In this document: in pieces, positions 52,863-64,000 of the stretch
Position numbering within the stretch: the stretch's first letter is position 1
Layout: every line of letters starts with the position of its first letter
DNA from: a virus
Direction: 5' to 3' (one strand)
Virus record (IMG/VR): IMGVR_UViG_3300025645_000038
Coordinates: 64,001 to 128,000 of that record
Length of the DNA stretch: 64,000 bases
Position numbers and translations under genes: made by a program
The notes under the pieces: generated by a model
The model's input: the letters and a program-made list of their open reading frames with translations, nothing else
Told to the model about the DNA's origin: nothing
The model's database searches: none

Positions 52863-52896
52863 AATTGTATTTCACTATTACGGGTGATATATATTA
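52863..52896 (+). promoter_or_regulatory. Putative bipartite promoter AATTGTATTTC-N11-TGATATATATTA upstream of SSB
   Basis: Matches 33975-34008 in both boxes and spacing. Confidence 0.6.
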
Positions 52897-52958
52897 TTGG
52901 TTACAGAATGATGTAACTAACAAATGAATAATAACTAATAAAATAAGGAGAATAAAAA

Positions 52959-53714
52959 ATGGATATTAATTCTATTCGTAAGCGTCTTAATCAATTACAA
53001 ACCACAAACAATAGGACTTCAAACCTATGGAAACCTCAACCAGGAAAACAAGTCATTAGGGTATTACCTTACAAACATAATAAGGATAATCCTTTCATTG
53101 AGTTGTTCTTTCATTTTGGTTTGAATAACAAAACCTATTTATCACCAATCTCTTTTGGTCGTCCAGACCCAATTGAAGAGTTTGCTCAGAAACTAAAAAC
53201 AAGTGGAAACAGAGAAGAGTATCAGATGGCTCGTAAGTTAGAAGCCAAGATGAGAACTTTTGCTCCTGTTATTGTTAGAGGTGAAGAGACTCAAGGTGTT
53301 CGTTTTTGGGGATTTGGTAAGACGGTCTATCAAGAATTACTTTCTGTAATAGCAGATCCAGACTATGGTGATATCACAGACGCTGTTAGTGGTCGTGATG
53401 TATCAGTAGAGTTTATTACTGCTGAAGAAAGTGGTGCTTCTTTTCCTAAGACTACCATTCGTGTTAAACCTAATCAGAATCCTATCGTAGAGGATAAAGC
53501 ACAATTGGAAAATCTCTTAGAAAACCAAAAAGACATTACTGAATTATATCAGGAATTATCTTATGAGGAGCTAACAGATGTTCTTAACACTTGGTTGAAT
53601 CCAGATGATACATCAACCGAGAGTGGAACTCAGACTGAAGCTTCGTCAGTAGTAGCTGAAACAGCAAAAGTTGAAGATGCTAGTGCTGCATTTGATGAGT
53701 TATTCAATAAGTAA
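52959..53714 (+). CDS. Single-stranded DNA-binding protein (gp32-like)
   Basis: WKP..G..VIRVLP, FWGFGKTVY, DITD..GRD and acidic tail ending FDELFNK. Confidence 0.85.
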   Translation: MDINSIRKRLNQLQTTNNRTSNLWKPQPGKQVIRVLPYKHNKDNPFIELFFHFGLNNKTYLSPISFGRPDPIEEFAQKLKTSGNREEYQMARKLEAKMRTFAPVIVRGEETQGVRFWGFGKTVYQELLSVIADPDYGDITDAVSGRDVSVEFITAEESGASFPKTTIRVKPNQNPIVEDKAQLENLLENQKDITELYQELSYEELTDVLNTWLNPDDTSTESGTQTEASSVVAETAKVEDASAAFDELFNK

Positions 53715-57513: not shown

Positions 57514-59526
57514 ATGATGGAAAAATTTCAGTTATCAGAAAATTTTATAAATAAATTTAAAAGAAAAAAGCCACCATTTGGTTTCAACGGATTAGGTGAA
57601 TTAGTTTATATGAGAACCTACTCAAGAATTAAAGAAGATGGTAAAAATGAGAGATGGTGGGAAACTGTACAAAGGGTTGTAGAAGGTACATACTCAATGC
57701 AGAAGAAATGGATTGAGTCTCACGAGTTAGGTTGGAATGCATGGCAGGCTCAGAAGAGTGCTCAAGATATGTATGAAAGAATTTTTACAATGAAGTTCCT
57801 ACCACCAGGTAGAGGACTTTGGGCTATGGGAACTCCTATCACAGAAGAAAAAGGTTTATATGCAGCTCTTAACAATTGTGCATTTGTATCAACCAAAACA
57901 ATAAAAGAAGATTATTCAAAACCTTTCTGTTTCCTTATGGATGCAAGTATGTTAGGTGTTGGAGTTGGGTTTGATACTAAAGGGGCTGATGAGATAATAG
58001 TAAAAGGAATAGATAAAGGTAGAGACGAACAATTGTTTGAAATACCTGATACTCGTGAAGGTTGGGTAGAATCTCTAAAGTTATTATTAGAAAGTTACTT
58101 TCATGGAACTGCTTCAATGAAGTTTGATTACTCAAAGATAAGAGGCGCTGGTGAACCAATAAGTGGATTCGGTGGTGTTGCTAGTGGTTATGAACCATTA
58201 GAAGAAGTTCATGAAGATATAAGAAAAGTATTAGAAAAAAATAGTGGAGAACCAATCACAATCACTACAATTGTTGATATTATGAATCTTATAGGAAAAT
58301 GTGTAGTAGCAGGTAATGTTCGTAGAACTGCTGAGATTGTATTTGGTGAGCCAGACAATGAAGAATATTTAGATTTAAAAAACTATGAAGTAAACCCACA
58401 CAGAGACCAATATGGATGGACAAGTAATAATAGTATATTTGCAGAATTGGGTATGGATTATACTGAAGCTGCCAAACGAATCGTAGATAACGGAGAGCCA
58501 GGTTTTGCTTGGTTAGATAATATGAGAAAGTATTCTCGTATGAAGAATGGTGGAGATGATAAAGACCATAGAGCTATGGGTGGTAATCCTTGTTTAGAAC
58601 AAACATTGGAGTCATATGAGTTATGTTGTTTAGTAGAAACTTTTCCTGATAATCATGATGACTTTGAAGATTATGCGAGAACTCTAAAGTATGCTTATCT
58701 TTATGCTAAAACAGTAACTCTTGGTAGAACACATTGGTCAGAAACTAACAGAGTTATGTTAAGAAACAGAAGAATAGGATGTTCGGTTAGTGGTATCGCT
58801 CAGTTCATCACTCATAGAGGATTGGGAACTTTAAAGGAGTGGTTAAATGATGGATACGATGTCATACAAGAATGGGATGATATGTACTCTGATTGGTTTG
58901 CTGTACCGAACTCAATCAAAACTACATCAGTTAAACCAAGTGGAACAGTTTCATTGTTGGCTGGCTCTACTCCAGGTTTACATTATCCCGAAAGTAGATT
59001 TTATATAAGAAGAATAAGGGTTTCAAAACATTCAGAACTATTAGTACCTATGGAAAAAGCAGGATATAAAATAGAACCTGCATTTGGTTCAGAGGATACT
59101 ACAATGGTTGTTGAAGTACCAGTAGATGTTGGAGAGGGAATAAGAACAGCGGCTGACCTATCGATATGGGAACAATTCAGTTTAGCTGCTTTTATGCAAA
59201 GACATTGGGCAGACAATCAAGTTAGTTGTACGGTTACATTCAATCCAGAAACAGAGGGTGAACAAATCGCACCCGCTCTAAATTATTATCAATATCATCT
59301 AAAAGGTATATCCCTTTTACCAAGACATGATTACGGAGCATATCCACAGATGCCGTATGAAGCTATAGATGAGAAAGAGTACAATAAACAAGTTAAGAAA
59401 CTTGGTAAACTTTCATTTGGTGTTATCAAAAATGAAGAGGCAGAAGTAGATAAGTTCTGTAATAACGATTCGTGTGAGATAATTCCAACGACTGGTGATA
59501 ACGATGACCAAGACTATGCTAATTAA
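57514..59526 (+). CDS. nrdJ: Class II adenosylcobalamin-dependent ribonucleotide reductase (monomeric RTPR type)
   Basis: FLPPGRGLW, LNNCAF, GNVRRTA, GNPCLEQ (thiyl Cys), ELCCL, TSVKPSGTVS and C-terminal CNNDSC; no beta-subunit gene nearby. Confidence 0.93.
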   Translation: MMEKFQLSENFINKFKRKKPPFGFNGLGELVYMRTYSRIKEDGKNERWWETVQRVVEGTYSMQKKWIESHELGWNAWQAQKSAQDMYERIFTMKFLPPGRGLWAMGTPITEEKGLYAALNNCAFVSTKTIKEDYSKPFCFLMDASMLGVGVGFDTKGADEIIVKGIDKGRDEQLFEIPDTREGWVESLKLLLESYFHGTASMKFDYSKIRGAGEPISGFGGVASGYEPLEEVHEDIRKVLEKNSGEPITITTIVDIMNLIGKCVVAGNVRRTAEIVFGEPDNEEYLDLKNYEVNPHRDQYGWTSNNSIFAELGMDYTEAAKRIVDNGEPGFAWLDNMRKYSRMKNGGDDKDHRAMGGNPCLEQTLESYELCCLVETFPDNHDDFEDYARTLKYAYLYAKTVTLGRTHWSETNRVMLRNRRIGCSVSGIAQFITHRGLGTLKEWLNDGYDVIQEWDDMYSDWFAVPNSIKTTSVKPSGTVSLLAGSTPGLHYPESRFYIRRIRVSKHSELLVPMEKAGYKIEPAFGSEDTTMVVEVPVDVGEGIRTAADLSIWEQFSLAAFMQRHWADNQVSCTVTFNPETEGEQIAPALNYYQYHLKGISLLPRHDYGAYPQMPYEAIDEKEYNKQVKKLGKLSFGVIKNEEAEVDKFCNNDSCEIIPTTGDNDDQDYAN

Positions 59527-59536
59527 AAACTTGCGG

Positions 59537-59570
59537 ATAGGCAGACGACACACCTATACAAAAATGTGTC
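59537..59570 (+). promoter_or_regulatory. Predicted H-type RNA pseudoknot in the TBDR leader
   Basis: S1 ATAGG/CCTAT, S2 GACACA/TGTGTC, L1 CAGAC, no L2, L3 ACAAAAA. Confidence 0.55.
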
Positions 59571-59598
59571 TTAACCAAAAACAAAGAGGAGACGTTTT

Positions 59599-62337
59599 AT
59601 GAATAAACGTAATCTATTATCTTGGCTGTTAATAGCTTTCACTCCAATTTTCCTTATGGGAAGTTCGGTAGTAGGAGTTGTTAGTGGCGAAGGTAAACCT
59701 TTGGTTGGAGCAAACGTAGTCATTGATGGTACAAACTTAGGAACCGTATCAGACGATGATGGTTTCTATAGTATTGATGTGCCTTTAGGTGAACATACTG
59801 TAGTTGCTTCATTCATAGGGTATTCATCTGTAACTCAAGTAGTTATGGTGGATTCAACAAGTGACGCTATAGCTGATTTCTCATTAGAGATGGATGCTAT
59901 TGCAATGTCTGCATTAGAAGTTCTTGCTTCTCGTGCTGACGAAACAACACCTGTTGCTTATACAACTGTAGATAAAGCTGAAATGGAAATCAGACTTGGT
60001 AGTCAAGATATTCCAATGATTCTTAATACTACACCGAGTGTATATGCTACTAACCAAGGTGGTGGTGCGGGTGATGCTCGTATCAATGTTCGTGGTTTCA
60101 ACCAAAGAAACGTTGCTGTTATGATTAATGGTGTTCCCCAAAATGATATGGAGAACGGATGGGTTTATTGGTCTAATTGGGATGGAGTAGGTGATGCTAC
60201 TTCTTCAATTCAGATGCAAAGAGGACTATCAGCTGTTAATCTTGCAACACCATCTATTGGTGGAACAATGAATATCATTACAGATCCTGCTGCTATGGAA
60301 AAAGGTGGTAAGTTCAAACAAGAAGTAGGTGAAGGTGGTTTTCTAAAAACTACTATGACTTACAACTCAGGTCTTATCAATGATAAACTAGCAATTGGTG
60401 GTGCGATAGTTCGTAAAACTGGTGATGGGTTTATTGATGGAACTTGGACAGACGCTTGGGCTTATTACTTAGGAACATCATATGCTATTAGTGATGACCA
60501 AAGGGTTGAACTATATGCTATCGGTGCTCCACAGAGACATGGACAGAACCTATACAAACAGAATATTGCTACTTACTCACAAGAGTTAGCAGGTAGTATT
60601 GATGGGTATGATGATTCTGCTTATGTTGCTGGTAACAAGTTTGAAACTGAAGCTGGTAGGTTTTATAATCAAAACGTAGCACCGATAAGTTCCGATTATA
60701 AAGGAAAGCAATATTGGTATATGTATGGGGATAAAACATCAGACAGATTTAGTCCCGACTTCCTAAATGAAAGAGAAAACTTCTTTCATAAACCACTTGT
60801 AAACTTAAATCATTTCTACGATATAAATGACGAACTTAGATTAAGTTCTGTTCTATATTGGAGTGGTGGTTCAGGTGGTGGTACTGGTACATATGGAAGT
60901 GTTAGTAGAAAACCTGCAGTTGAGGGAGAAAGATGGTATGCATCTTCACCTTGGACTTGGGATTGGGATGGAGAAATTGCTGAGAACTCTGCTAATGTAG
61001 ATTCTGCTTTCTCTGATACCGAAAATCGTTCTACTGGTATTCTTCGTAATTCAATTAATAGACAAGATACTTATGGTTTGATTTCAAAGTTAAACTATGA
61101 TGTATCAGATGAACTTGAAGTTCAGATTGGTATTGATTGGAGAACTGCTGGTATAGAACACGCTAGAGAAGTTCGTGACTTACTTGGTGGAGACTACTAT
61201 GTAGACTTTGCTGATAAGAATGCTCCCGATGGAAAAGTTGTTAGATTAGGTGATGAGATTGCTTATCACAATGAAACAACTGTCGATTGGTTTGGTGCTT
61301 TCTTACAAGGTAAGTATGATGCTGATAAGTTCAATCTTTATGGTATGGGTGGTATTTCAACCATTGGTTATACATATAAAGACCATTTCTCTGTAGAGAA
61401 AGAACTTGTTGAAGCTGATGCTATAACATCTTTCCAAGTAAAAGGTGGTGGTAGATATAATCTTGATGATAGATTATCTGCATTCGCTAATCTTGGATAT
61501 GTTCAGAAGCCGCCAATCCTTGATAATGTAATTTCTTATGATGGAACTGTATCTACAGATCCTGATAATGAGAAGTTCACATCAATGGAAGTCGGTGGTG
61601 AGTATAATAGTGGTTTAGTATCCATTAAGGGTAGTTACTACAATACTCAATGGAAAGATAGAAACCTTACAAAATCTGTAACAACAGGTCAAGGTGACTC
61701 AGGTGATACTGATATCATTTATCTAACTGGTGTAAATCAAAGTCATAGTGGAGTAGAAGTAGAAACGAAAGTTGCTCTTCACGAAATGGTTGACTTGGAT
61801 GTAGTAGTTAGTGTTGGTGATTGGTATTTCGATGGAGATGCTAAAGGTGACTATACAGAGATGGAATATAACGATGACAACCAAATCATTGGACAAACAT
61901 CTACAGAGTATGAATATGCTCTTAATGGTCTAATGGTTGGTGACATGCCACAAACTGCTTATGTTGGTGGATTAACTATTAAACCTATCGATGGATTAAG
62001 AATACAAGGTCTTTATAAGTGGTATGATAACCACTATTCAGATTGGAGTCCTGATTCTCGTGAGGTTGATGGTGATGCTGACAGAGCACAAGTATGGAAA
62101 ACTCCATCTTATGGCAAGTTAGACTTACATCTATCTTACAAACTACCAGAGATTGGTGGTTTAGATATGACACTTAGTGGTCATATATTTAACGTTCTTG
62201 ATGATGTTTATGTTCAAGACGCTGTTGACAATAGTAAGTATAATGGGTTTGGTGACAAAGTTCACGCTGCTCATAACGCTGAAGTATTTCTTGGTTCTCC
62301 AAGAAGTTTTAACTTAGGACTTGCTGTCAATTTCTAA
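59599..62337 (+). CDS. TonB-dependent outer-membrane receptor
   Basis: Signal peptide; N-terminal carboxypeptidase-regulatory-like domain (PLVGANVVIDGT..GTVSDDDGFYSI); plug (INVRGF...MINGVP, GGTMNIIT); beta-barrel; C-terminal PRSFNLGLAVNF. Confidence 0.92.
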   Translation: MNKRNLLSWLLIAFTPIFLMGSSVVGVVSGEGKPLVGANVVIDGTNLGTVSDDDGFYSIDVPLGEHTVVASFIGYSSVTQVVMVDSTSDAIADFSLEMDAIAMSALEVLASRADETTPVAYTTVDKAEMEIRLGSQDIPMILNTTPSVYATNQGGGAGDARINVRGFNQRNVAVMINGVPQNDMENGWVYWSNWDGVGDATSSIQMQRGLSAVNLATPSIGGTMNIITDPAAMEKGGKFKQEVGEGGFLKTTMTYNSGLINDKLAIGGAIVRKTGDGFIDGTWTDAWAYYLGTSYAISDDQRVELYAIGAPQRHGQNLYKQNIATYSQELAGSIDGYDDSAYVAGNKFETEAGRFYNQNVAPISSDYKGKQYWYMYGDKTSDRFSPDFLNERENFFHKPLVNLNHFYDINDELRLSSVLYWSGGSGGGTGTYGSVSRKPAVEGERWYASSPWTWDWDGEIAENSANVDSAFSDTENRSTGILRNSINRQDTYGLISKLNYDVSDELEVQIGIDWRTAGIEHAREVRDLLGGDYYVDFADKNAPDGKVVRLGDEIAYHNETTVDWFGAFLQGKYDADKFNLYGMGGISTIGYTYKDHFSVEKELVEADAITSFQVKGGGRYNLDDRLSAFANLGYVQKPPILDNVISYDGTVSTDPDNEKFTSMEVGGEYNSGLVSIKGSYYNTQWKDRNLTKSVTTGQGDSGDTDIIYLTGVNQSHSGVEVETKVALHEMVDLDVVVSVGDWYFDGDAKGDYTEMEYNDDNQIIGQTSTEYEYALNGLMVGDMPQTAYVGGLTIKPIDGLRIQGLYKWYDNHYSDWSPDSREVDGDADRAQVWKTPSYGKLDLHLSYKLPEIGGLDMTLSGHIFNVLDDVYVQDAVDNSKYNGFGDKVHAAHNAEVFLGSPRSFNLGLAVNF

Positions 62338-62349
62338 AATGGTAAACTT

Positions 62350-62375
62350 GGGGGGAATTTATTTCCCCCCTTTTT
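62350..62375 (+). terminator. Intrinsic terminator after the TBDR gene
   Basis: GGGGGGAA-TTTAT-TTCCCCCC-TTTTT. Confidence 0.88.
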
Positions 62376-62387
62376 ATCAAAAAACTC

Positions 62388-62416
62388 TTGACTTTTATCA
62401 AATTTATTCGTAGCTT
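62388..62416 (+). promoter_or_regulatory. Sigma70-type promoter for the DNA polymerase gene
   Basis: TTGACT-17 bp-TAGCTT. Confidence 0.6.
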
Positions 62417-62448
62417 TAAGTATAGAAAATGGGGATTATATAATCTAA

Positions 62449-64000
62449 ATGTATCAAAATTGTTATTTCGATAATAAAAAACAAACAGTTCATATTTGGG
62501 ATGACGAAAAAGGTTATTTCACAATGCCGTATAAAAGGTATGCTTATGTAAAAGATAGAAGTGGTGTACACATATCTTTATATGGAGACAAACTTAGAAA
62601 AGTTTACAGGTTTGATCCAGAGACACCTAATTTATTTGAATCAGATGTACCGCCAGAAACTCGTACATTGGTTGACCAATATGCTGACTCTGAAGAATTA
62701 TCTACAGGCCATCGTATTATGACAATTGATATTGAGGTTGAAGTTACAGATGGTTTTCCATATCCAGAAGACTCAAAAGATAAGATAACTGCTATCGCAG
62801 TTCATAACTCAGAAGAAGATGAGTATTATTGTTTAGTATTAGATGATAAAAAGAAACTCACTTTAGAATCAAAAGATAATGTGATTATCGAATCTTTTGA
62901 AAATGAGTTTGATTTACTACAAAGATTTTTTCTATTATATTTAGATTGGAAACCAACCATCATTACAGGTTGGAACTCTGATTCATTTGATATGCCTTAC
63001 ATCTACAATAGAGCTTGTAAGATTGTTGGTTCTGATATAGCTAATTTAATCTCACCAATAAGAGAAGTAAAGTGGAACAAACATCGTAAGAGGTTTATGT
63101 TTGCTGGTGTTAGTTGTTTAGATTACTTAGCTCTATACAAACTATTCACATACACTCAACTATCCTCTTACAGATTAGATGCTGTGGCTGAACACGAACT
63201 TAGTGAAAAGAAGGTTGAGTATAGTGGAACACTCAATGATTTATATGAAAACAATATAGATAAGTTTGTGGAGTATAACATTCATGATGTTAGACTTGTA
63301 AAGAGATTACATGATAAGTTAGACTTTATCGATATGGCTCGTGGTGTATGTCATGTAGGCCATGTTCCTTATGAGGATGTGTATTTCTCATCAAGATATT
63401 TAGAGGGTGCTATCTTGGTATACCTAAAAAACTTAGGTGTGGTTGCTCCAAATAAACCACCAAGAGTAATGAAGAATGATGACGAAAAGTTCGCTGGTGC
63501 TTATGTACAACCACCACAAAGGGGCAAACACGATTGGGTATTTGATTTGGATATTACATCTATGTATCCATCAGTTATTATGTCTCTCAATATCTCACCC
63601 GAAACAAAGATGGGTAAGTTAAATGGTTGGGATGTAGAGGAGTTTATGAAAGGAACTAAGAAAACATACACTCTTATACAGAATGATAAAGAGATGGGTA
63701 GACTTACTGAAACAGAACTTAAAGATTTCTTTGATAAAAACAAAGTTTCAGTATCTTCTAATGGTGTTCTATATCGTAGTGATAAGAAAGGATTGATTCC
63801 AGCACTACTAGAGAAGTGGTTTGATACTCGTGTGGAGTATAGAAAGTTGATGAAGAAGTTTGGTGATGCTGGAGATAATGAAAAATACACATACTTTAAA
63901 AGTCGTCAGCTAATACAAAAGGTTGTACTAAACTCTCTCTATGGTGTATTGGGTTTACCTGTATTTCGTTTCTATGATTTAGATAATGCAGAGGCTACTA
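62449..64000 (+). CDS. Family B DNA polymerase (gp43-like), 5' part, runs off the window end; absent from the ORF track
   Basis: Own translation from ATG 62449: ExoI IDIEV, ExoII GWNSDSFDMPY, ExoIII YNIHDV, motif A DLDITSMYPS, motif B QLIQKVVLNSLYG. Confidence 0.95.
   Translation, partial: MYQNCYFDNKKQTVHIWDDEKGYFTMPYKRYAYVKDRSGVHISLYGDKLRKVYRFDPETPNLFESDVPPETRTLVDQYADSEELSTGHRIMTIDIEVEVTDGFPYPEDSKDKITAIAVHNSEEDEYYCLVLDDKKKLTLESKDNVIIESFENEFDLLQRFFLLYLDWKPTIITGWNSDSFDMPYIYNRACKIVGSDIANLISPIREVKWNKHRKRFMFAGVSCLDYLALYKLFTYTQLSSYRLDAVAEHELSEKKVEYSGTLNDLYENNIDKFVEYNIHDVRLVKRLHDKLDFIDMARGVCHVGHVPYEDVYFSSRYLEGAILVYLKNLGVVAPNKPPRVMKNDDEKFAGAYVQPPQRGKHDWVFDLDITSMYPSVIMSLNISPETKMGKLNGWDVEEFMKGTKKTYTLIQNDKEMGRLTETELKDFFDKNKVSVSSNGVLYRSDKKGLIPALLEKWFDTRVEYRKLMKKFGDAGDNEKYTYFKSRQLIQKVVLNSLYGVLGLPVFRFYDLDNAEAT

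What the first reader, a model, noticed from the sequence alone, without database searches (positions are those of the whole stretch)
57514..62375. Complete phage-encoded TonB-dependent receptor directly after a B12-dependent RNR
Seen: an intact 912-aa TBDT (signal peptide, plug, barrel, terminal Phe) lies 72 bp after nrdJ. No terminator is visible between them, there is one after the TBDT, and both flanks are phage replication genes. Known: class II RNR needs adenosylcobalamin, and Gram-negative bacteria import cobalamin through TBDTs (BtuB). Inference: the phage may install its own outer-membrane importer to supply B12 or another scarce nutrient for dNTP synthesis. Alternatives are TonB/receptor competition for superinfection exclusion, or iron uptake. 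The substrate cannot be read from the sequence.
Basis: partly seen in the sequence, partly recalled or inferred. Interest (0 to 1): 0.85.

Follow-up and report, generated by a model that had tools for sequence, protein, structure and literature searches.

The report
Phage-borne TonB-dependent importer from Marinimicrobia
A widespread group of marine T4-like phages carries an intact outer-membrane nutrient importer captured from SAR406 (Marinimicrobia) bacteria, kept under strong selection behind its own RNA leader; the evidence argues against vitamin B12 as its cargo.

Summary
A 912-aa TonB-dependent transporter (TBDT) lies 72 bp after an RTPR-type class II RNR (nrdJ), inside the replication module of a 165-kb T4-like phage record. 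It is not an assembly artefact: at least 329 IMG/VR contigs carry it.

The gene was captured from Marinimicrobia. All phage copies form one clade nested in the Fidelibacterota orthologues, which reach at most 67% identity. It is under strong purifying selection (dN/dS about 0.11), and its plug is about 100% identical to the host consensus.

The B12 reading is not supported:
- Four Marinimicrobia genomes with the nearest orthologue each hold a separate, riboswitch-controlled, BtuB-like TBDT unrelated to the phage protein.
- No cobalamin riboswitch precedes the phage gene or its orthologues.
- 6 of 70 close nrdJ loci lack the TBDT, at least two through deletions that left traces.
- Five contigs carry the TBDT with no RNR nearby.

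What always travels with the gene is a conserved 34-nt leader, a hairpin or pseudoknot with compensatory changes and no Rfam match. Bacteroidota orthologues sit in an operon with a secreted nucleotide pyrophosphatase/phosphodiesterase in 12 of 23 loci, which hints at a phosphodiester or nucleotide cargo.

This scan reached the same core conclusion earlier on another genome (e1-4702854).

The parts
57514..59526 (+). nrdJ: monomeric RTPR-type class II (adenosylcobalamin-dependent) ribonucleotide reductase, 670 aa
   Evidence: TIGR02505 365.9 bits, above the 340 cut-off. phrog_367 E 5e-138. 76-99% identical in related phage loci.
59537..59570 (+). Conserved 5' leader RNA of the TBDT. S2 hairpin GACACA(59547-59552)/UGUGUC(59565-59570). 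Possible H-type pseudoknot through S1 AUAGG(59537-59541)/CCUAU(59553-59557), with an A-rich loop at 59558-59564.
   Evidence: 46 and 64 distinct copies are 98.4% and 97.7% paired. 3 of 6 S2 pairs and 1 of 5 S1 pairs show compensatory changes. 0 of 500 shuffles reach the observed score, and slid controls pair only 17-58%. The element is single-copy in the phage record. It stays with the TBDT when nrdJ is 0.5-2 kb away or absent. No Rfam match.
59586..59591 (+). Shine-Dalgarno GAGGAG, 7 nt before the ATG; unpaired in the minimum-free-energy fold
   Evidence: Sequence; fold.
59599..62337 (+). TonB-dependent transporter, 912 aa: signal peptide (about residues 1-22), CarboxypepD_reg N-terminal extension (27-104), candidate TonB box ALEVLASRA (105-113), plug (115-223), beta-barrel (about 236-912), C-terminal Phe
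   Evidence: dN/dS about 0.11 among phage copies. Plug residues 141-220 are about 100% identical between the phage and Marinimicrobia consensus.
62350..62375 (+). Intrinsic terminator closing the nrdJ-TBDT unit
   Evidence: 8-bp G+C stem followed by a T-run. The same terminator is retained in the TBDT-deletion derivative L211.
62449..64000 (+). Family B DNA polymerase (runs off the window), preceded by a TTGAC-type promoter-like element that is conserved in relatives
   Evidence: Pfam DNA_pol_B_exo1 and DNA_pol_B. Promoter-like sequence seen in the window and in L211, L226 and L259.

Best explanation
The gene is a host-derived auxiliary gene. An ancestor of this group of marine T4-like myoviruses captured the conserved TonB-dependent outer-membrane transporter of its Marinimicrobia (SAR406/Fidelibacterota) host once.

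During infection the gene is transcribed with nrdJ in a unit that ends at the terminator at 62350-62375, and it is translated from its own structured leader. The protein would be exported by the host Sec system, inserted by host BAM and energised by host TonB-ExbBD, because the phage record encodes none of these. It would then keep up or raise import of whatever the host orthologue carries during a long latent period, much as cyanophage psbA or pstS sustain a host function the phage depends on.

The cargo is not cobalamin. The best available hint, from the operon partners of orthologues in sister phyla, is a phosphodiester- or nucleotide-type organophosphate that would supply phosphorus or nucleotides for DNA synthesis.

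Shown here: intactness, phage location, single origin within Marinimicrobia, purifying selection, the conserved leader, and the separate host BtuB. Inferred: expression timing, membrane insertion, transport activity and cargo. My odds for the general mechanism are given under confidence; for the organophosphate/nucleotide cargo specifically they are about 0.3.
For: Phage context and reality:
- 329 IMG/VR contigs and more than 100 protein clusters at 82-99% identity carry the gene. Every locus examined shows the synteny RecA, exonuclease, DnaB, nrdJ, TBDT, PolB.

Origin:
- All phage copies form one clade (SH-like 100 in FastTree, SH-aLRT 99 in IQ-TREE) nested inside the Fidelibacterota clade (100).
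- The orthologue is present, mostly as a single copy, in 111 of 201 sampled Fidelibacterota genomes, at up to 67% identity.
- Its flanks there are host chromosomal genes.

Function kept:
- dN/dS is 0.11 with synonymous differences at a proportion of about 0.57. This is as constrained as nrdJ (0.08) and UvsX (0.12).
- The plug is about 100% identical to the host consensus. The loops are conserved within the phages and there is no hypervariable region.
- The candidate TonB box EVxAxRA is conserved across 20 diverse homologues.
- No TonB_C or ExbB is found in the phage record.

Own regulation:
- A leader with covariation always precedes the gene.

Cargo hint:
- Among Bacteroidota orthologues (44-50% identical to the phage protein), 12 of 23 loci from an even sample have a signal-peptide-bearing PF01663 nucleotide pyrophosphatase/phosphodiesterase 117-250 bp downstream on the same strand.
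- The same holds in 10 of 25 loci of the Bacteroidota/Ignavibacteriota/Calditrichota/Chlorobiota clade.
Against:
- The NPP operon lies in a sister clade, not in Marinimicrobia, where NPP is encoded elsewhere, so the cargo may differ.
- Deoxynucleoside kinase is adjacent in only 3 of 30 close Marinimicrobia loci, so that link is weak.
- The phage record has no NPP and no dNK.
- The gene is dispensable in some relatives: 6 of 70 nrdJ loci lack it.
- The host assignment rests on gene phylogeny and on FCB-infecting relatives by capsid similarity, not on CRISPR spacers or single-cell data.
Confidence: 0.6

Rival explanations
1. B12 importer: the phage installs the transporter to bring in cobalamin for its adenosylcobalamin-dependent RNR.
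For: The upstream gene is a B12-dependent RTPR. The two genes are adjacent in 64 of 70 nrdJ loci and share one terminator. nrdJ and the TBDT are the two best-conserved genes of the module.
Against: - No BtuB model is hit, and neither sequence nor fold shows any special affinity to BtuB.
- Marinimicrobia genomes with the orthologue have a distinct, riboswitch-controlled BtuB-like TBDT of 681-707 aa that is unrelated to the phage protein.
- No cobalamin riboswitch precedes the orthologues or the phage gene.
- nrdJ persists without the TBDT in 6 loci.
- The TBDT persists without a nearby RNR in 5 contigs.
- No PduO-type adenosyltransferase is found in the phage record.
Confidence: 0.07
2. Iron or siderophore importer: the phage boosts iron supply in iron-poor seawater.
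For: Most characterised TBDTs carry iron chelates. The best solved-structure matches are XusA (9gbc), FecA, FhuA and Fiu.
Against: Those matches cover generic plug, N-terminal-extension or fold features at about 13% identity. None of the cellular neighbourhoods examined holds iron-uptake genes. The phage's own RNR is the iron-independent class.
Confidence: 0.1
3. Superinfection exclusion or receptor interference: the phage copy competes with the host copy (perhaps the phage's own receptor) or titrates TonB, so that infected cells stop adsorbing phages.
For: TBDTs are common phage receptors (established knowledge; the FhuA-pb5 and FhuA-Llp structures appear among the fold hits). The phage copy is a diverged version of a single-copy host surface protein.
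Against: The plug and transport core are kept almost unchanged. The surface loops are conserved among phages rather than diversifying, and overall dN/dS is 0.11. Newly made barrels cannot remove receptors already in the membrane (inference).
Confidence: 0.1
4. Neutral passenger: a recently picked-up host gene with no role in infection.
For: It has been lost in some relatives.
Against: The phage clade is deep (58-99% identity), synonymous differences are high (proportion about 0.57), dN/dS is 0.11, and the gene has a phage-specific conserved leader and terminator.
Confidence: 0.03

Closest known systems
Conserved TBDT of Marinimicrobia/Fidelibacterota with a CarboxypepD_reg N-terminal extension (uncharacterised orthologue; loci L088-L096, L381-L410)
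   Same: Same architecture and length, 58-67% identity, and a nearly identical plug. The phage clade nests inside this clade.
   Different: The cellular genes have no pseudoknot leader, are not next to an RNR, and lie among chromosomal housekeeping genes.
BtuB, the cobalamin TBDT (E. coli 1NQE; riboswitch-controlled BtuB-like genes of Marinimicrobia, L179-L182)
   Same: Both are TonB-dependent plug-and-barrel outer-membrane importers.
   Different: BtuB-type proteins have 594-707 aa and follow a cobalamin riboswitch. The phage protein has 912 aa and no riboswitch, does not hit TIGR01779 or NF007926, and shows no BLASTP similarity to the host BtuB-like protein.
Putative TonB-dependent receptor (SusC) listed as an auxiliary gene of marine megaphage Mar_Mega_1 and LR745206 (Michniewski et al. 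2021, PMC9723777)
   Same: A TBDT annotated in a marine phage genome and read as a nutrient-uptake auxiliary gene. LR745206 gives a plug-only tblastn hit to this protein at 26.5% identity.
   Different: A different phage group (genomes over 600 kb) and only distant similarity. That work reports no origin, selection, linkage or regulatory analysis, and it proposed carbohydrate uptake.
Cyanophage auxiliary genes psbA and pstS (established knowledge, not tested here)
   Same: Works alike: a host-derived gene that sustains a host supply function during infection.
   Different: Those products are a thylakoid protein and a periplasmic protein. This one is a roughly 100-kDa outer-membrane barrel that needs host BAM and TonB.
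TBDT plus NPP (PF01663) two-gene operon of Bacteroidota, Ignavibacteriota, Calditrichota and Chlorobiota
   Same: An orthologous TBDT (44-53% identity) forming the sister clade in the tree.
   Different: The phage and Marinimicrobia copies have lost the NPP partner. I found no paper describing this operon.
Small H-type pseudoknot leaders: preQ1-I riboswitch and the T4 gene 32 translational operator (recalled from memory; leads only)
   Same: About 34 nt with a 5-bp stem 1 and an A-rich loop 3, followed by an unstructured A-rich stretch up to the ribosome-binding site.
   Different: No Rfam family matches. Stem 2 has 6 bp with no loop 2. Neither a ligand nor a protein partner is known.

Membership tests
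TonB-dependent transporter superfamily | Plug domain (PF07715) | tested here: met
   49.5 bits against a cut-off of 23.9, residues 115-223.
TonB-dependent transporter superfamily | 22-strand beta-barrel enclosing the plug | tested here: met
   AF2 model pLDDT 83.4. Foldseek E 7e-34 to Fiu, PqqU, FhuA and YncD, with target TM 0.72-0.81. The Pfam barrel model itself was not hit at E below 0.001.
TonB-dependent transporter superfamily | TonB box N-terminal to the plug | tested here: inconclusive
   ALEVLASRA at residues 105-113. EVxAxRA is conserved in 20 diverse homologues. This is a motif only; no interaction was tested.
TonB-dependent transporter superfamily | Signal peptide and C-terminal aromatic beta-signal | tested here: met
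   The N-terminus has K/R followed by a hydrophobic run, and the C-terminus is ...LGLAVNF. Judged by inspection; no predictor was run.
BtuB (cobalamin TBDT) | Match to the BtuB equivalog models TIGR01779 / NF007926 | tested here: not met
   Neither is among the NCBIfam hits of the phage protein. The host riboswitch-linked TBDTs do hit them best, at 32-104 bits, which is below the cut-off.
BtuB (cobalamin TBDT) | Cobalamin riboswitch in the leader | tested here: not met
   No RF00174 hit in the window at 52-64 kb at E up to 1, or in 59500-59620 at E up to 10. None in 13 cellular orthologue loci.
BtuB (cobalamin TBDT) | Orthology to the host's riboswitch-controlled transporter | tested here: not met
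   BLASTP of the phage protein against L179's riboswitch-linked TBDT gives a best E of 0.58.
BtuB (cobalamin TBDT) | Cobalamin binding and transport | not testable with these tools
   Needs a binding or complementation assay.
SusC/RagA | Full-length match to TIGR04056 and an adjacent SusD-like lipoprotein gene | tested here: not met
   TIGR04056 scores 55.7 bits against a cut-off of 368, over the N-terminal 27-183 only. The next phage gene is PolB. No SusD family appears among the scanned neighbours of the cellular orthologues.
Phage auxiliary metabolic gene | Host-derived gene inside a bona fide phage genome, flanked by phage genes and under purifying selection | tested here: met
Known riboswitch or RNA families (Rfam 15) for the leader | Covariance-model match | tested here: not met
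   Only chance-level hits, E 3-7 and at most 15 bits.

The most novel reading that the evidence does not exclude
The 34-nt leader is a new regulatory RNA, either a small-ligand riboswitch or an operator for a phage protein such as the gp32 single-strand-binding protein. It would tie synthesis of the importer to the nucleotide or replication state of the infected cell. The importer itself would bring in nucleic-acid-derived phosphodiesters, so that these phages make SAR406 cells feed on dissolved DNA or nucleotides to build virus DNA.
Probability: 0.12. Interest if true: 0.85.

Novelty: new variant of a known kind. Interest (0 to 1): 0.55.

Why it matters
Marinimicrobia (SAR406) are among the most abundant uncultured bacteria of the dark and low-oxygen ocean, and I found no paper that links phages to them. 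This gene gives a phylogenetic host link for a phage group seen in hundreds of metagenomic contigs.

It also extends auxiliary genes to a large outer-membrane machine that depends on host BAM and TonB. It points to one conserved, uncharacterised transporter family as important enough for a virus to carry.

Two testable leads follow from it:
- a TBDT-NPP operon in cultivable Bacteroidota that could reveal the cargo;
- a compact, covarying leader RNA with no Rfam family.

It also corrects an attractive but unsupported story, that the phage imports B12 for its B12-dependent RNR.

Tried and rejected
- **Literature:** no paper was found on phage TBDTs linked to RNR or Marinimicrobia, or on a TBDT-NPP operon. 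The only precedent is the megaphage note in PMC9723777.
- **Leader outside the phages:** model R1 found no convincing copy upstream of 53 cellular orthologue loci or in 5 Marinimicrobia genomes (best 19 bits, E 0.08). No second copy exists in the phage record.
Rejected as a conserved feature.
- **Deoxynucleoside kinase as a neighbour:** seen in 4 of the first 15 Marinimicrobia loci but in only 3 of 30 in the wider sample. Downgraded to a weak hint.
- **Phage nrdJ homologue in 5 Marinimicrobia genomes:** not found with this query.
- **Phage record searches:** no TonB_C, ExbB, dNK, PduO adenosyltransferase or NPP. The record is 79% complete, so absence is not proven.
- **Technical failures:** one fuzzy-regex script timed out. 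One viral scan was wasted on a mis-counted pattern. One genome search had a wrong 'of' argument.
Full report
**1. Observation.** The window holds two adjacent plus-strand ORFs, 57514-59526 (670 aa) and 59599-62337 (912 aa), 72 bp apart.
- The first is an adenosylcobalamin-dependent ribonucleoside-triphosphate reductase: TIGR02505 scores 365.9 bits, above its 340-bit cut-off, and phrog_367 gives E 5e-138.
- The second has a signal-peptide-like N-terminus, a CarboxypepD_reg-type N-terminal extension (residues 27-104), a Plug domain (115-223) and a C-terminal Phe.
- Its AlphaFold2 model (pLDDT 83.4, pTM 0.79) matches solved TonB-dependent transporters at Foldseek E about 1e-34.
- A strong intrinsic terminator lies at 62350-62375 and none lies between the two genes.
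- The flanking genes are gp32, RecA/UvsX, 5'-3' exonuclease, DnaB helicase and family B polymerase. The window also encodes a T4-type major head protein and a tail sheath.
- The window is part of a 164,845-bp IMG/VR virus record rated 79% complete, with 144 of 147 ORFs on one strand.

**2. Not an artefact, and widespread.**
- The protein search returns over 100 clusters at 82-99% identity.
- The contigs looked up show the same order: RecA, exonuclease, DnaB, sometimes a methyltransferase, nrdJ, TBDT, sometimes a 166-aa ORF, PolB.
- IMG/VR holds 329 contigs with a close relative of the TBDT and 288 with a close relative of nrdJ.
- In all 80 TBDT loci with upstream DNA, nrdJ lies just 5' of the TBDT.
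- Across these phages nrdJ (76-99% identity) and the TBDT (74-99%) are much better conserved than DnaB (53-95%) or PolB (29-100%).

**3. Origin and host.**
- The nearest cellular homologues are in Marinimicrobia (Neomarinimicrobiota/Fidelibacterota) MAGs and a single-cell genome, at 58-67% identity.
- Their flanks contain no phage genes. They hold DnaG primase, an epimerase, peptidase S58, Amt, P-II and GltB.
- A 90-row tree largely follows phylum taxonomy. The phage copies form one clade nested deep in the Fidelibacterota clade.
- Adding the most divergent phage copies (58-72% identity) keeps one phage clade: SH-like 100 in FastTree and SH-aLRT 99 in IQ-TREE, inside a Fidelibacterota clade with support 100.
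- One 4.2-kb MAG contig (L087) has no leader and a divergently transcribed upstream gene, yet it nests inside the phage clade. It may be a transfer back to a host or a mis-binned fragment.
- The orthologue is present, mostly as a single copy, in 111 of 201 evenly sampled Fidelibacterota genomes.
- By capsid similarity the closest isolates are Flavobacterium phage immuto (49%), Microcystis phage Mel-JY01 (51%) and Rhodothermus phage RM378 (34.5%). Two of these three infect FCB-group hosts, and none carries this TBDT.

I read this as a single ancient capture from a Marinimicrobia host. My estimate for that host assignment is about 0.75.

**4. Is it a B12 importer?** Several independent tests say no.
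- **By sequence:** no BtuB model is hit. In a profile search of the PDB, the best match is Bacteroides XusA (9gbc), over the N-terminal extension and plug only. PqqU, YncD, FecA and FhuA follow, with BtuB far behind at E 1.7e-5.
- **By fold:** all TBDTs score alike at about 13% identity, and BtuB is rank 30.
- **By regulon logic:** four of the five Marinimicrobia genomes that hold the nearest orthologues each have exactly one cobalamin riboswitch (RF00174, 36-80 bits). It sits directly upstream of a different TBDT of 681-707 aa. That protein's best NCBIfam hit is TonB-B12 and it has no BLASTP similarity to the phage protein. In one genome a beta-propeller protein with a T9SS sorting domain follows it. 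The host already has a BtuB, and the phage gene is not derived from it.
- **Riboswitch absent:** none of 13 orthologue loci, nor the phage region, has a cobalamin riboswitch.
- **No adenosyltransferase:** the phage record has no PduO-type enzyme.

**5. How tight is the link to nrdJ?**
- Of 70 assessable loci found through nrdJ (86-99% identity), 64 have the TBDT next to it and 6 do not.
- L211 is a clean deletion. The 3' end of nrdJ is fused at a short CCAAGA homology to the last ten or so codons of the TBDT, followed by the same terminator.
- L253, L254 and L258 keep the leader and the first 27 or so codons of the TBDT, then continue into an unrelated 483-aa ORF with no Pfam family.
- L226 and L259 go straight from nrdJ to the PolB promoter region. 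L259 appears to have a tRNA gene in between, judged by eye and not scanned.
- Conversely, a pattern scan for the leader found at least 120 contigs. In five of them (L281, L297, L312, L328, L330; TBDT 58-71% identical), leader plus TBDT have no nrdJ upstream. In the three longer loci they sit after Hsp20 and a roughly 280-aa unknown ORF.
- No RNR large-subunit family is found on those five contigs of 19-57 kb.

So nrdJ works without the TBDT and the TBDT occurs without nrdJ nearby. The adjacency is the usual state of one lineage, not an obligate couple.

**6. Selection.**
- Among 13 representative phage copies, median dN/dS is 0.11 with a proportion of synonymous differences of about 0.57. The comparison values are nrdJ 0.08, UvsX 0.12, and DnaB and PolB about 0.21.
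- In a comparison of 65 distinct phage copies with 10 Marinimicrobia copies, residues 141-220 (the plug core) are about 100% identical between the two consensus sequences.
- The long loops are better conserved within phages (0.84-0.88) than within cells (0.64-0.69).
- Only the signal peptide and the N-terminal extension vary much.

This pattern fits a working transporter. It does not fit a decaying passenger or a surface protein in an arms race.

**7. The leader RNA.**
- The spacer holds a motif conserved in every TBDT-bearing locus, with consensus GCGGACAGGCAGACGACACACCUGUAGAAAAAUGUGUC.
- Stem S2 (GACACA/UGUGUC) has compensatory changes at 3 of 6 pairs. The possible pseudoknot stem S1 (ACAGG/CCUGU) has them at 1 of 5.
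- Cells are 98.4% paired in 46 copies and 97.7% in 64 distinct copies. 0 of 500 shuffles reach the observed score, and slid controls pair only 17-58%.
- The second alignment was pattern-selected and fitted to S2, so S1 support is thin.
- The motif is single-copy in the phage. No convincing match was found upstream of the cellular orthologue loci searched or in five Marinimicrobia genomes. It has no Rfam match.
- It stays with the TBDT when nrdJ is 0.5-2 kb away or missing.
- The Shine-Dalgarno GAGGAG is unpaired in the minimum-free-energy fold. I therefore found no support for a conserved anti-SD switch.
- Its layout is a compact pseudoknot followed by an unstructured A-rich tract up to the ribosome-binding site. 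From memory, this resembles the T4 gene 32 operator and preQ1-I. Those are leads, not tests.

**8. Cargo hints from orthologue neighbourhoods.**
- In the sister clade (Bacteroidota, Ignavibacteriota, Calditrichota, Chlorobiota), 10 of 25 loci have a type I phosphodiesterase/nucleotide pyrophosphatase downstream on the same strand, in 8 of 11 such loci immediately so. It scores 326 bits on PF01663 and has a signal peptide and the SxDGFRWDY motif.
- An independent, even sample of 301 Bacteroidota genomes gave 23 orthologue loci. Twelve have this gene 117-250 bp downstream on the same strand.
- Marinimicrobia keep an NPP orthologue, but not within about 1.5 kb of a TBDT.
- A deoxynucleoside kinase lies next to the TBDT in a few Marinimicrobia, but only in 3 of 30 close loci.

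The family is thus recurrently tied to an extracytoplasmic phosphodiester- or nucleotide-cleaving enzyme. That makes an organophosphate or nucleotide cargo the best guess (about 0.3), and it would suit a gene placed in a phage's DNA-synthesis module. It remains guilt by association in a sister clade.

**9. Mechanism (inferred).** nrdJ and the TBDT are transcribed as one unit that ends at 62350-62375. The TBDT is translated from its own leader. The precursor uses host Sec and BAM, and host TonB-ExbBD provides the energy, since no TonB_C or ExbB is found in the phage record. The added transporter keeps up or raises import of the host orthologue's substrate during infection.

**10. Comparison and novelty.**
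- PHROGs holds an unannotated family with a plug-only match (phrog_5687).
- This scan had already reached the same core reading on another genome (e1-4702854). I reproduced it independently.
- New here are the explicit tests against B12, the deletion derivatives and the RNR-free context, the selection figures, and the TBDT-NPP operon of the sister clade.

I class it as a new variant of a known kind, a phage auxiliary gene.

**11. Limits.**
- No expression or biochemical data exist.
- The phage record is incomplete.
- Trees are single-gene, with SH-type supports only.
- dS is close to saturation for the distant pairs.
- The host assignment is indirect.

Noticed in passing
L211:4400-4600 (IMGVR_UViG_3300030106_006270): A relative in which the TBDT has been cleanly deleted. 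The 3' end of nrdJ is joined at a short CCAAGA homology to the last ten or so codons of the TBDT, followed by the same terminator.
   Followed up: partly
L253:6022-7673 (also L254, L258): The leader and the first 27 or so codons of the TBDT are kept. An unrelated 483-aa ORF with no Pfam family then replaces the transporter before PolB.
   Followed up: partly
L281, L312, L330 (also L297, L328): A second genomic context in which leader plus TBDT has no nrdJ upstream. In L312 and L330 the order is Hsp20, a roughly 280-aa unknown ORF, leader, TBDT; L281 shows the unknown ORF, and L297 and L328 are too short to annotate. No RNR is found on these 19-57 kb contigs, which CheckV rates 11-32% complete.
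   Followed up: partly
L087 (JAFMFP010000048.1, 4.2-kb contig of a Neomarinimicrobiota MAG): A TBDT without the leader and with a divergently transcribed upstream gene nests inside the phage clade (SH-aLRT 97). It may be a phage-to-host back-transfer or a mis-binned fragment.
   Followed up: partly
L179-L182 (Marinimicrobia genomes G002-G005): Each genome has one cobalamin riboswitch followed by a 681-707 aa BtuB-like TBDT. In L181 the next gene is a beta-propeller protein with a T9SS sorting domain, which is reminiscent of Bacteroides BtuG (recalled, not tested).
   Followed up: partly
L411-L431 and L103-L158 (Bacteroidota and allies): A conserved two-gene operon of the orthologous TBDT and a secreted PF01663 nucleotide pyrophosphatase/phosphodiesterase, present in 12 of 23 sampled Bacteroidota loci. 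I found no paper on it.
   Followed up: partly
window 52880-52960: The gp32 gene has its own leader: a GUUACA/UGUAAC hairpin followed by a long A/U-rich unstructured tract up to the ribosome-binding site. This recalls the layout of the T4 gene 32 autoregulatory operator.
   Followed up: no
window 62380-62448; L211, L226, L259: A conserved promoter-like element, TTGAC(A/T), about 17 nt, then TA..TTTA, precedes PolB in all relatives read. L259 also appears to carry a tRNA gene between nrdJ and this element (judged by eye, not scanned).
   Followed up: no
loci L001-L086: Across the phage group nrdJ and the TBDT stay at 74-99% identity while DnaB falls to 53% and PolB to 29%. Either the replication genes are exchanged in mosaic fashion or the nrdJ-TBDT pair is under unusually strong constraint.
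   Followed up: partly
window 10279-33972; genome 39865-53616: Four consecutive ORFs of 1738-2091 aa and one of 4583 aa, presumably fibres or adhesins. Other notes of this scan already flag them.
   Followed up: no
spacer upstream of the leader in many loci (e.g. L044, L051, L083): A second short conserved element, TTCACATACAAAAA, lies between the nrdJ stop codon and the leader in about half of the loci. It is absent from this window and might be an own promoter or a processing site.
   Followed up: no
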